Source: an uncultured Bacteroidales bacterium (GTDB lineage Bacteria; Bacteroidota; Bacteroidia; Bacteroidales; UBA932). From it: DNA of 64,000 bases. Under the pieces are notes generated by a model. It was not told the origin of the DNA. It worked only from the letters and a program-made list of their open reading frames with translations, and made no database searches. This document shows positions 9,741 through 59,420 of this stretch, in pieces. Positions within the stretch are counted from its first letter, which is position 1. Each line of letters starts with the position of its first letter. Location: NCBI GenBank assembly GCA_947169405.1, contig CAMVPS010000003.1, forward strand, positions 23,064 through 87,063, written 5' to 3'. The translations under genes and the position numbers were made by a program.

Positions 9741-9840
9741 AGCACGGCTGAGGGAACAGTTTGGCGGGTTATCGTGCCCCCGCACGTGCTCCAGCACGGC
9801 TGAGGGTACGTTTTGCCCCCAAAACGTGCCCTAACGAGGT
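9741..9840 (-). repeat. Doublet of the 50-bp AGCACG...CAGCCGTGCT hairpin repeat (second unit degenerate)
   Basis: Reverse complement matches the units at 53996-54097, 55159-55260 and 56232-56333. Confidence 0.85.
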
Positions 9841-9863
9841 TGGGACAAATCGTTCTCGATTCG

Positions 9864-10016
9864 TGTACACTGCGTCAGTGTACAACGGAACACACGCACA
9901 AGGTTACTTTTATGTACACTGCTCTCGGGGAAAGGGCAAAATGCAGGTTTGGCAGAAAGAGCGTACAGAATAACGTACATATATCGCATTCCATTTGTAC
10001 GCTGCTGCAGTGTACA
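9864..10016. repeat. Cluster of TGTACACTG-N3-CAGTGTACA palindromes
   Basis: tgtacactgcgtcagtgtaca (9864-9884), tgtacgctgctgcagtgtaca (9996-10016) and a half site near 9913. Confidence 0.65.
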
Positions 10017-10055
10017 ACGCAGACGAGTCAGAGAGGGCGCCGGGCGCCTGGGCGC

Positions 10056-44779: not shown

Positions 44780-44854
44780 GGGAGCCATTTGGCGAAACTC
44801 CGCCACGGGGGCGGACTGCAAAGTTACGAATAATTTCCAAAAAACAAATACGCA

Positions 44855-44987
44855 AGGGCAAAAAGGTCCAAATTTGCCCATCCGTCGGGCGGTATGACTG
44901 TTCGAGGGGCACAAGACCCTTGTTTTGCCCCGCGAGGGCCGGGAAATAACAATCGAGGGGCAAAAACCAAGGTTTTCGCCCCTCGAT
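44855..44987. repeat. Three GGGC-A-rich/T-rich-GCCC hairpins
   Basis: gggcaaaaaggtccaaatttgccc; cgaggggcacaagacccttgttttgccccgcg; atcgagggggcaaaaaccaaggttttcgcccctcgat. Confidence 0.65.
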
Positions 44988-45013
44988 GAGGGTTGGATGT
45001 CGCTCCGAAAGGA

Positions 45014-51702: not shown

Positions 51703-51732
51703 AAAAATGCCCGGTTTCGACCGGGCATTTTT
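51703..51732. terminator. Bidirectional terminator between clpB and fabG
   Basis: aaaaatgcccggt-ttcg-accgggcattttt. Confidence 0.85.
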
Positions 51733-51759
51733 GTCATTTCGAGCGAAGTCGAGAAATCT
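51730..51759. repeat. REP-like element tttGTCATTTCGAGCGAAGTCGAGAAATCT
   Basis: Identical 30-mer at 59391-59420. Confidence 0.85.
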
Positions 51760-53835: not shown

Positions 53836-53995
53836 GAAACACATAAAATACATACTGAAACAACACGAGTTATCCACAACCCGTGTTGTTTTTTGTTTGT
53901 CTGGCCTAACTTTGGGACCCCACCCCGGGTGGGGGTGTGCGCCTCGCCTTCGCTCGGGAGCTGTGACCACGCCCTCGGGCGAGGGGGTGGGTTGA

Positions 53996-54097
53996 AGCAC
54001 GTGCCGGGGCACGAATAGTGCCCCAAGCGTTCCCACAGCCGTGCTGGAGCACGTGTGGCGGCACGAAAACGCACAAATACGTCCCCTCAGCCGTGCC
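53996..54097 (+). repeat. Doublet of the 50-bp hairpin repeat (53996-54045, 54048-54097)
   Basis: AGCACG-N4-GGGGCACG-N14-CGTTCCC.CAGCCGTGCT units joined by GG. Confidence 0.9.
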
Positions 54098-54145
54098 GGT
54101 AAAAGGTCGGGAGGGCGCGTTCAGTAAAATGAAAAACATGGAACG

Positions 54146-55129
54146 ATGCGGATGATTGATTATGTAATCGCCCTCGGCGATCTGATGATGCCGCGGGCGT
54201 GCCTGGCCTGCGGACGCAGGCTGGGCATGCGCGAGCGGCATCTGTGCCTCTCGTGCGCAGCGGACGTGCCCTATACGCGCTTCTGGCTCGCGGCGCACAA
54301 CCCGCTCGCGGACCGCTTCAACGCGGTCCTGGAGCGCCACCGCGGGACCGAGCCGATGGACTATGCCTATGCGGCCGCCCTGCTCTATTACAAGGGCGCC
54401 TACCGCTCCATCCCGCGCGCGTTGAAGTACCAGGGCGACCTGGCGGCCGGGCGGCACTACGGCGCCCTCCTGGGCCGCCGCCTCGCCGCCGCCCCGCACT
54501 TCGCAGACATCGACCTGGTCATCCCCGTCCCCCTCCACTGGACCCGCCTCCGCGCCCGCGGCTACAACCAGGCCGAAATCCTTGCCCGCGCCCTGGTCGA
54601 CGCCTTCCGCTCCGCGCCCGCCGCCGTTTCGTCGGACACCCCTTCCACCGTTCCATCGGGCACATCTGCCGCCGTCATTCCGGGCTTGACCCGGAATCTC
54701 CCCGAGGTCCGGACGGATCTCCTCGTCCGAGCCCGCCGCACTCGCACCCAGACTCGCGTCTCCGTGGACCAGAAAGCCCAGAACGTGGCCTCCGCCTTCC
54801 AAGTCCCCGACCGCTTTTCCCTGTGGGCGAGAGTCATCAGCCGATTGTCCCACATATTCTCCTTCGATTCCGCCAGATGGCCGAACAAGGTCGGCCCTGA
54901 CGGCGACGATTCCTCCGGGCGGGTCCTGAGCTTGGCGAGGGACGCGCCAGAGTCGCCGGCGGAGGTCCTCGCATCGGCCCGCCATATCCTCCTCGTGGAC
55001 GATACGTTCACGACCGGAGCCACGTTGTACGCCTGCTACGCCGCCCTGCGCCCCTTCACGACCGCCCGCATCTCCATCGCCACCCTCGCCGCCGTGGAAG
55101 GCTCCCCTTCGGGAATCGGCGGCCCGTAA
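54146..55129 (+). CDS. comF: ComF family protein (double Zn ribbon plus PRTase) with two repeat-derived in-frame insertions
   Basis: CLACG...CLSC, LKY, PVPLH..R.RARGYNQA, LLVDDTFTTGAT. Confidence 0.88.
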   Translation: MRMIDYVIALGDLMMPRACLACGRRLGMRERHLCLSCAADVPYTRFWLAAHNPLADRFNAVLERHRGTEPMDYAYAAALLYYKGAYRSIPRALKYQGDLAAGRHYGALLGRRLAAAPHFADIDLVIPVPLHWTRLRARGYNQAEILARALVDAFRSAPAAVSSDTPSTVPSGTSAAVIPGLTRNLPEVRTDLLVRARRTRTQTRVSVDQKAQNVASAFQVPDRFSLWARVISRLSHIFSFDSARWPNKVGPDGDDSSGRVLSLARDAPESPAEVLASARHILLVDDTFTTGATLYACYAALRPFTTARISIATLAAVEGSPSGIGGP

Positions 55130-55158
55130 TCCTCGGTAAGTGGTGACGCGAGACCCCA

Positions 55159-55260
55159 AGCACGTGGTGGGGCACGTAAAAGCCCAGAAACGTTCCCTCA
55201 GCCGTGCTGGAGTACGCGAGAGGGCACGCTAACCTACGAAAACGTTCCCCCAGCCGTGCT
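55159..55260 (+). repeat. Doublet of the 50-bp hairpin repeat, upstream flank of the RAYT-like gene
   Basis: Units 55159-55208 and 55211-55260. Confidence 0.9.
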
Positions 55261-55320
55261 GTGACGAACTTTGACAAGAGAACCATCCCTGCGAGGAGCC
55301 GGGAAAAGAAATAGATCGAA

Positions 55321-56232
55321 ATGGATAAAAGACAGAAAAGAAGAGCCGAGTACAAATCCTGGAAGAGGGGTTATTATCATCTATGTACGGATGGAAAGAA
55401 GGGGACTATCTGCCACGACGAAGCGGAATATGTGTATTTGGTCAACACGATATCCCTGCTGGATCTGCTGTTTCCCGTGAAAGTGCACTTCTACGAGGTG
55501 ATGCGAAGTCACGTCCACCTGCTCCTTTCAGGGCGGGGGGAGCATTGCGTGGCAGTATTCGACTATGTGAGGAGCCGAATCAACAAGCGGCTGGTAGCAG
55601 ATGGACACCCCCCGCTTCCCAAGGATTATGATTTCAAATTGATTCCTGTCGTGGATGAGGATCAGATGCGAAACAATGGCATTTATATCGCGCGGAACGC
55701 TTCCGAAGTATTGAACATCCGCCCGGGCGGATACTTGTTCGGTTCGTCCATGGCATTCTATTCCGATCTTCCCCGCCTGTTCGAGACGGTCCGGGCGGGC
55801 GACTTGTCCGTGCGGACGTTGAGAAAGATGTTTCAGACGCACGTGTCCATCCCTCCCGACCGCTTGATTCACCCGGGATTGGGAATGGTATTGCCGCAAA
55901 GCTTCGTGGATATGGACGTTTTGTATAAGGTGTTTCCCGCGGCGAAGGAATTTGAGACCCGCCTCGTGAAGGATTACGAAGCGTTCGTAGAAATCGCCGA
56001 CGAGATGGGGGAGGAGATAACGTTTTCCGTGGAGGAGGCAAAAGACATCGTCAAGCAAGAGTTGATGATGGAGGGCCTAAAGCTGTCCGAACTCTCCAAC
56101 GACGACCGTTGTGCCTTGGCAGTGCGGCTGAACAAGAAATACAGGTTGGATGCCGTTACCTTGTCACAAGCCGTTTTCATCCCAGCTCGTATCATCTCCC
56201 AGGCACTCAAGTCGAAGAAGTATAAAGAGTGA
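55321..56232 (+). mobile_element. REP-associated tyrosine (HUH Y1) transposase-like protein with C-terminal helical extension
   Basis: YYHLCTDG, VMRSHVHLLL (HUH), YIARN (catalytic Tyr helix), YLFGSS; lower GC; flanked by hairpin doublets. Confidence 0.78.
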
Positions 56233-56333
56233 GCACGTGTCGGGACACGAAATAGCCCTGAAACGTTCCCTCAGCCGTGCTGGAGCACGCGAGAGGGAAC
56301 GCTAACCTACGAAAATGTTCCCCCAGCCGTGCT
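56232..56333 (+). repeat. Doublet of the 50-bp hairpin repeat, downstream flank of the RAYT-like gene
   Basis: Units 56232-56281 and 56284-56333; the first base overlaps the TGA stop. Confidence 0.9.
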
Positions 56334-56431
56334 GAACGGGTTGGGGGAACGGGAGGGGGTTGGATTCAGCGGGGCTTCCGGTCGGGGCGGGGAGGCAATC
56401 GGGCTGACGGGACCGCCTGGCCGGGAGGGCC

Positions 56432-58507
<2,076 letters not shown>

Positions 58508-59308: not shown

Positions 59309-59420
59309 ATTCTCACGTCGGTCTTCGACCTCCTCAGAATGACAGGAGCAATACGTTCCTTGACCTCCTCGGAATGACAAAAGTATATCCTTTGTCATTT
59401 CGAGCGAAGTCGAGAAATCT
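59306..59420. repeat. Composite REP-like cluster (two ...GAATGACA units plus GTCATTTCGAGCGAAGTCGAGAAATCT) between convergent genes
   Basis: gacctcctcagaatgaca and gacctcctcggaatgaca, then a 30-mer identical to 51730-51759. Confidence 0.75.

What the first reader, a model, noticed from the sequence alone, without database searches (positions are those of the whole stretch)
53996..56333. RAYT-like HUH nuclease with a fixed-geometry 50-bp hairpin-doublet system that also brackets comF
Seen: three same-orientation doublets (53996-54097, 55159-55260, 56232-56333). Each has two 50-bp units joined by GG (52-bp period). Each unit is a bulged hairpin AGCACG-N4-GGG(C/A)ACG-[14-nt loop]-CGTTCCC-CAGC-CGTGCT. 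Loop length is invariant while loop sequence varies (aatagtgccccaag, aaaacgcacaaata, taaaagcccagaaa, ctaacctacgaaaa, aaatagccctgaaa). The second units on either side of the nuclease gene are nearly identical, and the gene's stop codon overlaps the first base of the downstream doublet. Established: REP-associated tyrosine transposases (HUH plus a single Tyr) are flanked by the REP hairpins they cut. Inference: this is a Bacteroidales RAYT/REP system whose units are larger than classical REPs, lack the GTAG-type end and occur as direct tandem doublets. The layout doublet-comF-doublet-nuclease-doublet resembles a cassette array whose intervening genes could be excised or moved as ssDNA.
Basis: partly seen in the sequence, partly recalled or inferred. 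Interest (0 to 1): 0.85.

Follow-up and report, generated by a model that had tools for sequence, protein, structure and literature searches.

The report
Competence-linked RAYT-like nuclease with 52-bp repeats
A rumen Bacteroidales genome carries a resident gene for a relative of the REP-associated single-strand DNA nucleases, flanked by its own palindromic repeats with a 52-base period, and this gene family repeatedly sits behind comF or behind the same upstream motif as the DNA-uptake genes dprA and radC, so it is likely switched on during DNA uptake and likely spreads its repeats at that time.

Summary
The three doublets are real and at the stated coordinates; a fourth lies at 9741-9842. 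The gene encodes a 303-aa class-2 HUH/Y1 protein. Its best structural match is E. coli TnpA-REP; it also has a C-terminal helix-turn-helix and is predicted to dimerise. Of 84 family genes, 61 are flanked by arrays, mostly of 52-bp period, with gene-specific arms and a shared A/T-GC-A/T 14-bp core. The gene is fixed behind comF, under purifying selection, and swapped between relatives together with its repeats. The comF-cassette idea is not supported: comF is a resident gene, its upstream doublet is optional, and no excision footprint was found. This scan met the family before on other DNA. New here is a regulatory link. The motif upstream of comF has five strong sites in this genome (comF, dprA, radC, a lipoprotein, a toxin gene). 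The same motif precedes 10 of 63 other family genes (controls 2 of 488), and the family sits behind comF in three separate clades. Verdict: a new variant of the RAYT/REP kind, lacking GTAG, and probably tied to the competence regulon. Cleavage and co-expression are untested.

The parts
55321..56232 (+). Gene for a 303-aa class-2 HUH/Y1 (RAYT-like) protein: H64-x-H66, Y122-x3-N126, P135-x2-Y138 tail, predicted dimer region (residues 128-242), C-terminal helix-turn-helix (about 238-303)
   Evidence: dN/dS 0.06-0.13 against four homologues
55159..55260 (+). Doublet 2: units 55159-55208 and 55211-55260 (18-nt arm, 14-nt A/T-GC-A/T core, 18-nt inverted arm)
56232..56333 (+). Doublet 3: units 56232-56281 and 56284-56333; first base shared with the stop codon
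53996..54097 (+). Doublet 1, in the comF leader; optional copy (singlet or absent in relatives)
9741..9842 (-). Orphan doublet of the same family between convergent genes; site empty in one relative
53836..53914 (+). Operator-like motif (inverted repeat 53858-53891) followed by a Bacteroidota -7-type box (53907-53914; consensus recalled); shared with dprA, radC and other family genes
54146..55129 (+). comF-family gene, resident host gene and probable first gene of the transcript; lengthened by an in-frame insertion
   Evidence: (below the curated cut-offs)

Best explanation
The gene is a chromosomally resident, RAYT-like HUH/tyrosine nuclease gene flanked by its own 52-bp-period palindromic repeats, and the enzyme likely binds these repeats (predicted to do so as a dimer), would nick and rejoin them in single-stranded DNA so that copies occasionally reach new intergenic sites, and is likely co-expressed with the host's DNA-uptake genes. 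Shown: the conserved catalytic residues, flanking by gene-specific direct arrays, scattered copies that are present or absent between relatives, the fixed locus, purifying selection, allele replacement, and the shared upstream motif. Predicted: the fold and the homodimer. Inferred: that the arms are the specificity element, that the fixed 14-bp core and 52-bp period (five helical turns) set the geometry for a dimer, that transcription reads through from the comF promoter, and that the substrate is single-stranded DNA present during transformation. The repeats are the REP/BIME counterpart; comF is the promoter donor, not cargo.
For: Protein: only M61, H64, H66 and Y122 are invariant in 121 homologues. 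85 of 121 hit the RAYT model NF047646 and 65 of 121 hit Y1_Tnp at E<=0.1, while the window protein itself does not. The AlphaFold model (pLDDT 96) has TnpA-REP 4ER8 as top hit in both searches (Foldseek E 1.4e-4; Z 12.9, 160 aligned, rmsd 3.3), and the C-terminus resembles DnaA domain IV and other HTHs at only Z 5.6-5.9. Homodimer score 0.76 against best control 0.01 (mark reached by 20 of 30 solved pairs and 1 of 23 single chains; runs agree in >=95% of contacts, pLDDT >=89). Repeats: 61 of 84 genes are flanked; of 85 arrays 62 have period 52 and 17 period 51. Upstream and downstream arrays match in direct orientation in 40 of 75 genes against 3 of 300 cross-gene pairs. All 4 of 251 genomes with a homologue at >=80% identity carry this repeat's junction; 4 other genomes match the pattern without such a gene. 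Orphan sites are polymorphic. Locus: comF lies upstream in every locus at >=53% identity; dN/dS 0.06-0.13; in L040 the gene is 67% identical while its flanks are 95-98% identical. Regulation: five strong motif sites in this genome (scores 38-67, next 3.6), before comF, dprA, radC, a lipoprotein and a Gp49-type toxin. A profile trained only on dprA/radC upstream DNA scores >=20 before 10 of 63 family genes not behind comF, against 2 of 488 controls. comF adjacency needs 3 changes on the tree. No terminator-like site lies between comF and the gene. comF is needed for transformation in P. gingivalis (PMC3268665, abstract), and comF and dprA in Riemerella (PMC8459023, passages).
Against: No cleavage, binding or expression data. 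Copy number is low: 7 doublets in a 74%-complete genome, against hundreds for classical REPs. Orphan insertions carry extra flanking DNA and show no clean ends, so recombination or deletion could explain their presence or absence. Arm covariation within this repeat family is marginal (109 of 2000 shuffles reach the observed value). 23 of 84 family genes show no array, and 7 of 12 family ORFs in this genome have none. Most family genes are neither behind comF nor under the scored motif (53 of 83), and about 17 have a different promoter motif shared with lipoprotein genes, not with dprA/radC. Eight of the 24 training genomes were chosen because their gene's upstream DNA looked similar, the queries favoured comF-linked loci, and the tree is a quick tree. 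The A-rich motif variants of other lineages did not separate from controls. The regulon also holds toxin-antitoxin genes, so it may be a general stress regulon.
Confidence: 0.6

Rival explanations
1. Host-function variant: the protein is a domesticated competence accessory. The arrays are duplex binding sites read by the helix-turn-helix dimer (A/T tracts 10 bp apart, 52-bp phasing), and the nuclease processes, marks or filters incoming DNA rather than mainly copying repeats.
For: Strong purifying selection; three separate arrivals behind comF and direct motif control in further clades; tracts occur as A or T runs at either side across the family, which fits shape readout of duplex DNA; weak hairpin covariation; predicted dimer with HTH.
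Against: Five congeners at 94-98% completeness (and one at 78%) had no family hit yet keep dprA. Up to 12 divergent family ORFs per genome with different repeats look more like coexisting selfish lineages. Seven sites are too few to mark incoming DNA broadly.
Confidence: 0.17
2. Autonomous insertion element: the direct arrays are the ends or attachment sites of a doublet-gene circle that integrates into an existing doublet and excises to leave one.
For: Arrays on both sides are direct and alike. One low-depth RNA-run contig joins the gene end (56231) to the start of doublet 2 (55158) (X16 record 20). The family occupies many loci across the genus.
Against: One copy per clade per genome with no near-identical duplicate; one locus over 53-96% identity; no footprint in 7 metagenome loci; no relative found in viral contigs, plasmids or phages with these queries. 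The contig joint can be an assembly chimera through the repeat.
Confidence: 0.13
3. One reading: doublets bracket mobile cassettes, and comF is excised or moved as single-stranded DNA.
For: The layout in this genome and in one or two close relatives. An earlier scan note reports a strain-variable gene between doublets elsewhere (not checked here).
Against: comF is resident, mostly beside fabG and/or the ATPase, without gene or repeat in most congeners. Doublet 1 is optional and lies downstream of the promoter motif. No joint that cleanly removes comF between doublets 1 and 2 appears among the listed joints of four DNA runs (2 joints not shown).
Confidence: 0.04
4. The repeats are RNA-level elements (stability or processing hairpins) and their link to the gene is coincidental.
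For: They lie just after stop codons and can fold.
Against: Arm sequence changes with the adjacent allele while the geometry stays; no Rfam family at gathering score; no U-tracts.
Confidence: 0.03

Closest known systems
REPtron: E. coli TnpA-REP (RAYT, PDB 4ER8) with REP/BIME; Pseudomonas and Stenotrophomonas RAYT-REPIN systems
   Same: HUH plus one Tyr with Y-x3-N spacing (Y115/N119 in E. coli, PMC8266576 and PMC3479197 passages; Y122/N126 here); best fold match; single resident gene flanked by cognate palindromes that recur elsewhere; conserved stem mismatches; arms turn over between relatives.
   Different: About 300 aa with a middle domain and HTH, against 165 aa; predicted dimer, whereas TnpA-REP is a monomer (PMC3479197); no GT(A/G)G foot and no WQ motif; direct 52-bp-period arrays instead of inverted REP pairs with variable linkers; few copies; many paralogues per genome; link to a comF/dprA/radC motif.
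TnpA-Y1 subclass 2.1 of Quentin et al. 2018 (PMC6006769) = RAYT group 1 (PMC5581495) = TIRYT (PMC3733652)
   Same: Class-2 signature (NHxH, Y---NP in the family consensus), serine tail, C-terminal HTH resembling the DnaA C-terminal domain, several divergent copies per genome.
   Different: The paper found no REP-like repeats at subclasses 2.1 and 2.3, and TIRYTs have terminal inverted repeats. Here the flanks are direct tandem arrays. The proteins are longer (about 300 against a median of 238 aa) and lack the W[EQ]/FQ motif. The paper's profiles were not available, so subclass placement was not tested.
TnpA-Y1 subclass 2.6 (Bacteroidetes, atypical secondary structures; PMC6006769)
   Same: Same phylum; no GTAG; repeats recur in the genome.
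   Different: Median 179 aa with a WQ motif. The 30 of 68 Table S1 rows seen are mostly short hairpins with 3-9-nt loops, none a 52-bp-period doublet.
IS200/IS605 TnpA (IS608, ISDra2)
   Same: HUH/Y1 core; hairpin-forming ends; dimeric.
   Different: No identical copies, no tnpB beside the gene, class-2 motif, same repeat on both sides; the predicted dimer surface is the added middle domain, not the shared beta-sheet.

Membership tests
RAYT/REPtron | HUH motif and single catalytic Tyr in a Y---N(P) motif | tested here: met
   H64, H66, Y122 invariant and N126 >=90% conserved in 121 sequences; the window clade has NA in place of NP
RAYT/REPtron | TnpA-REP fold | tested here: met
   4ER8 top hit in both searches of the predicted model
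RAYT/REPtron | Scores above the curated RAYT profile cut-off | tested here: not met
   NF047646: 10.6 bits against a cut-off of 80 for the window protein; best family member E 7.8e-11
RAYT/REPtron | Gene flanked by cognate palindromes that recur elsewhere in the genome | tested here: met
RAYT/REPtron | 5' GT(A/G)G tetranucleotide at the hairpin foot, and the WQ recognition region | tested here: not met
   flanks of 31 adjacent unit pairs are unconserved; no WQ in the alignments
RAYT/REPtron | High repeat copy number | tested here: not met
   7 doublets in a 74%-complete genome; 1-6 junction matches per positive genome; repeats may be under-assembled
RAYT/REPtron | Resident, non-duplicating, conserved gene | tested here: met
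RAYT/REPtron | Repeat-dependent ssDNA cleavage and strand transfer | not testable with these tools
   needs purified protein
TnpA-Y1 subclass 2.1 / TIRYT | C-terminal HTH related to DnaA domain IV | tested here: inconclusive
   Z 5.6-5.9 over 64-66 residues, tied with other HTHs; no Pfam hit
TnpA-Y1 subclass 2.1 / TIRYT | Terminal inverted repeats, no REP-like arrays | tested here: not met
   direct match beats inverted in 38 of 42 genes with a strong up/down match
IS200/IS605 | Near-identical mobile copies at different loci, with empty target sites | tested here: not met
Competence regulon gene | Shares the upstream motif of dprA, radC and comF | tested here: met
   indirectly, through comF, for the window gene; directly for 10 of 63 other family genes
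Competence regulon gene | Co-transcribed and co-induced with DNA-uptake genes | tested here: inconclusive
   only assembled contigs of RNA runs were available; they cover the gene but show neither strand nor level

The most novel reading that the evidence does not exclude
A large family of dimeric HUH/tyrosine nucleases in rumen Bacteroidales has been wired, several times independently, into the natural-competence regulon. Each paralogue reads its own 52-bp-phased palindromic array and acts on single-stranded DNA during uptake, and gene plus repeat alleles are swapped as specificity modules at a fixed locus. This would give domesticated RAYT-type enzymes a defined physiological trigger, and it exposes an undescribed Bacteroidales competence operator.
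Probability: 0.3. Interest if true: 0.85.

Novelty: new variant of a known kind. Interest (0 to 1): 0.62.

Why it matters
Why RAYT-type transposases are kept like host genes, and when they are active, is an open question; PMC3479197 asks what signal activates TnpA-REP. Here a RAYT-like family is repeatedly placed under the same upstream motif as comF, dprA and radC, which names a testable condition (DNA uptake) and a testable substrate (incoming single-stranded DNA). The family also offers many natural enzyme-repeat pairs with one fixed geometry, useful for working out HUH specificity. The motif itself is a candidate competence operator for an abundant, mostly uncultured rumen group. Without the regulatory link this is one more member of a family that the scan has already reported several times.

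Tried and rejected
Pfam gave no hit for the protein alone; a profile of close homologues found no PDB sequence and the wide profile only weak IS200 hits. Rfam: nothing at gathering score; ncS54 at 30.5 against 43 bits was rejected. No relatives in viral contigs, plasmids or phages with these queries. Footprint search: 9 metagenome loci, 7 with the intact gene and 2 chance matches inside coding DNA. The read joint 55091-56440 is the comF-ATPase junction of relatives without the system, not an excision; joints between doublets with sides of 21-22 letters were taken as array variants or orphan copies. RNA-run contigs cover the gene but cannot show expression. Specificity residue: Q5 goes with this arm type in 13 of 16 genes against 5 of 51 (best of 1279 tests), but with only 4 independent pairs, p 0.25-1, so it is a lead only. 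Autoregulation as the meaning of the motif: made unlikely because A-rich variants stand before dprA in genomes without a family hit (judged by eye). A-rich variant profiles did not separate family genes from controls, and my regular expression for the second motif was too strict, so that count comes. The Atlas was available only for a homologue: nearest clusters unnamed, one with Y1_Tnp in 20% of members. The lipoprotein genes were not identified. Literature: searches for 52-bp/tandem/palindrome/Bacteroidales/transposase and Bacteroidetes/regulon/dprA/radC/comF gave 0 papers; searches listed nothing on this family or motif, judged from listings only. The genus name used was a guess from memory. 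Subscription papers are not covered. The word-processor supplement of PMC6006769 was only term-searched and its figures were not seen.
Full report
OBSERVATION. The three doublets are at the stated coordinates. Each has two 50-nt units (18-nt arm, 14-nt core, 18-nt imperfect inverted arm) joined by GG. The genome (G000, 2.42 Mb, 74% complete) holds 7 such doublets, four of them in the window, including an orphan at 9741-9842. A genome-wide period scan gives 21 arrays at period 52, against 0-4 at other periods that are not multiples of three; about four of the 21 belong by eye to unrelated short repeats. Several different 51/52-period families coexist, one more at window 44841-44993.

THE PROTEIN. 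ORF 55321-56232 encodes 303 aa with no Pfam hit and only a trace RAYT hit. Across 121 homologues only M61, H64, H66 and Y122 are invariant; 85 hit the RAYT model and 65 hit Y1_Tnp at E<=0.1. The predicted model (pLDDT 96) matches E. coli TnpA-REP best, and residues 238-303 form a helix-turn-helix weakly like DnaA domain IV. A homodimer is supported by the model but not shown: score 0.76, best control 0.01, mark reached by 20 of 30 solved pairs and 1 of 23 single chains, interface at residues 128-156, 184-217 and 236-242. TnpA-REP is a monomer (PMC3479197, passages and section 17). The family was found in 27 of 36 congeners and 0 of 24 genomes of other families in the order; record titles of homologous loci mostly read rumen Bacteroidales. 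G000 has 12 family ORFs, mutually distant, 5 of them with their own array.

THE REPEAT AS A FAMILY TRAIT. With the period left free from 20 to 120, the best period beside most homologues was 50-53 or its double. Of 84 distinct genes, 61 have an array; of 85 arrays, 62 have period 52, 17 have 51 and 6 another value (control 24 of 1000). With centres chosen by pairing alone, 36 of 67 even-centred arrays show C-R-N14-Y-G, with A/T-rich edges and a G/C-rich middle. The arms differ from gene to gene, even among alleles at the same locus. Upstream and downstream arrays match each other directly in 40 of 75 genes, against 3 of 300 cross-gene pairs. In 251 genomes, the 4 with a homologue at >=80% all carry this repeat's junction; 4 others match the pattern, two of them through a variant sequence. 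The array is best read as alternating half-sites with two linkers of 14 and 2 nt. The unit hairpin and the junction hairpin are about equally good, and covariation is marginal. There is no GTAG foot, which classical REPs need (PMC8266576 passages; PMC3479197 section 17).

LOCUS AND MOBILITY. Every homologue at >=53% identity lies behind comF, and dN/dS is 0.06-0.13. In L040 the gene is 67% identical while its flanks are 95-98% identical, and its repeats are of another type; L033 is a mosaic that falls from 95% to 54-77% along the gene. Gene and repeats are therefore exchanged as alleles at a fixed site. Orphan doublets are polymorphic: G275, which has the non-cognate allele, is empty at 3 of 4 orphan sites and has a singlet at the fourth, and the C43 site is empty in 4 of 4 relatives examined. 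The extra DNA is 175-555 nt, not just the doublet, and has no clean ends, so the mechanism is not shown. No footprint lacking the gene was found, nor any relative on viral contigs, plasmids or phages. One low-depth contig joins the gene end to doublet 2, which may be a circle or a chimera.

comF IS NOT CARGO. In 23 of 30 comF loci no family gene follows, and 1 of the 23 has an array beside comF. In several, comF abuts the ATPase directly. Doublet 1 is a singlet in L032 and L040 and absent in L034.

THE REGULATORY LINK. Upstream of comF, at 53836-53891, is a motif with an inverted repeat before a -7-type box (box consensus recalled). A profile built from five other genomes finds five strong sites in G000 (38-67 bits, next 3.6): comF, dprA, radC, a lipoprotein and a Gp49-type toxin gene. 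In those five genomes (30 of 34 matches fetched) it precedes comF, dprA, radC, the lipoprotein, HigB-type genes, one secreted protein and three family genes directly (two labels were read from the start sequence; L162 confirmed as a family member). In 24 further genomes dprA and radC often share lineage-specific variants, and family genes in G276-G279, G281 and G225 carry a closely similar variant. A profile trained on dprA/radC DNA alone scores >=20 before 10 of 63 family genes not behind comF, against 2 of 488 promoter-like controls; 8 of the 24 genomes were picked for this likeness. comF adjacency (20 of 83 genes) needs three changes on a quick tree, all forced by starred branches; the sampling favoured comF loci. 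Variants stand before dprA in genomes without a family hit, so the motif is likely a host regulon mark (by eye). About 17 other family genes have a second motif, shared with two lipoprotein families. No terminator-like site separates comF from the gene, but a GAACTTTG just after doublet 2 could be a promoter of its own, so read-through is inferred. comF mediates competence in P. gingivalis (PMC3268665, abstract), and comF and dprA are essential for transformation in Riemerella (PMC8459023, passages); RadC is listed among hypothetical competence proteins (PMC7965970, passages).

MECHANISM. Most likely (0.6) the enzyme works like TnpA-REP: it recognises its cognate arms, nicks single-stranded DNA through Y122 and occasionally transfers repeat copies, while slippage or recombination changes unit number in steps of 52 (a 52-nt loss is seen at the C12 site). 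Expression with DNA-uptake genes would supply enzyme when single-stranded DNA is present, and transformation would also explain the allele swaps. Rivals: a host competence accessory that reads duplex arrays (0.17), an autonomous circle-forming element (0.13), a comF cassette (0.04), RNA elements (0.03).

COMPARISON AND NOVELTY. It works like a REPtron but fails the GTAG, WQ, profile cut-off and copy-number tests. In domain layout it is nearest to subclass 2.1 of PMC6006769 (abstract, sections 11, 12 and 19, passages, and part of Table S1 seen), for which no REP-like repeats were found, and to TIRYTs (PMC3733652, passages; PMC5581495, passages). Earlier notes of this scan describe what looks like the same family with hairpin doublets in other genomes (unchecked). 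Two word look-ups found none on the competence motif, and the paper searches named under Tried and rejected found neither. Verdict: a new variant of a known kind; interest 0.62, resting mainly on the untested competence link.

Noticed in passing
window 54600-54960 and 56770-56885: comF and the metal ATPase carry in-frame insertions that hold other palindromic repeats. The palindrome at 54672-54702 recurs inverted at 56774-56804 and has 26 matches in the genome. comF is 327 aa here, while most relatives have open frames near 250 aa.
   Followed up: partly
window 44841-44993: An array of a different arm family with 51-bp period and the same A/T-GC-A/T cores, with no family gene beside it.
   Followed up: partly
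G000 C1:10632, C53:8253, C13, C130, C64; L188-L213: A second promoter motif (an inverted repeat 8 nt before a TTTGC box) precedes many family genes and two unidentified lipoprotein families of about 390 and 494 aa, but not dprA or radC: a possible second regulon.
   Followed up: partly
window 53870-53878: The motif contains TTATCCACA, which matches the DnaA-box consensus as recalled; many other copies read TTATCAACA.
   Followed up: no
G000 C58:3136-4326; L166: An unannotated 397-aa lipoprotein and a 484-aa secreted protein with a weak T2SSK hit share the comF/dprA/radC motif, so they are candidate DNA-uptake proteins.
   Followed up: partly
L042:4001-4896: The homologue here is split by a frameshift near residue 212.
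   Followed up: no
L053, L057: Family members in records labelled Fibrobacter and Paludibacteraceae nest among Bacteroidales sequences: transfer or binning error.
   Followed up: no
window 55158/56231 (run X16, record 20): A low-depth contig joins the gene end to the start of doublet 2: circle, tandem copy or assembly chimera.
   Followed up: partly
window 9860-10030: A degenerate repeat of another type lies beside the orphan doublet; one relative has a similar repeat on the other side and another has neither.
   Followed up: partly
window 51730-51759 and 59391-59420: An identical 30-nt palindromic repeat with 34 matches in the genome.
   Followed up: no
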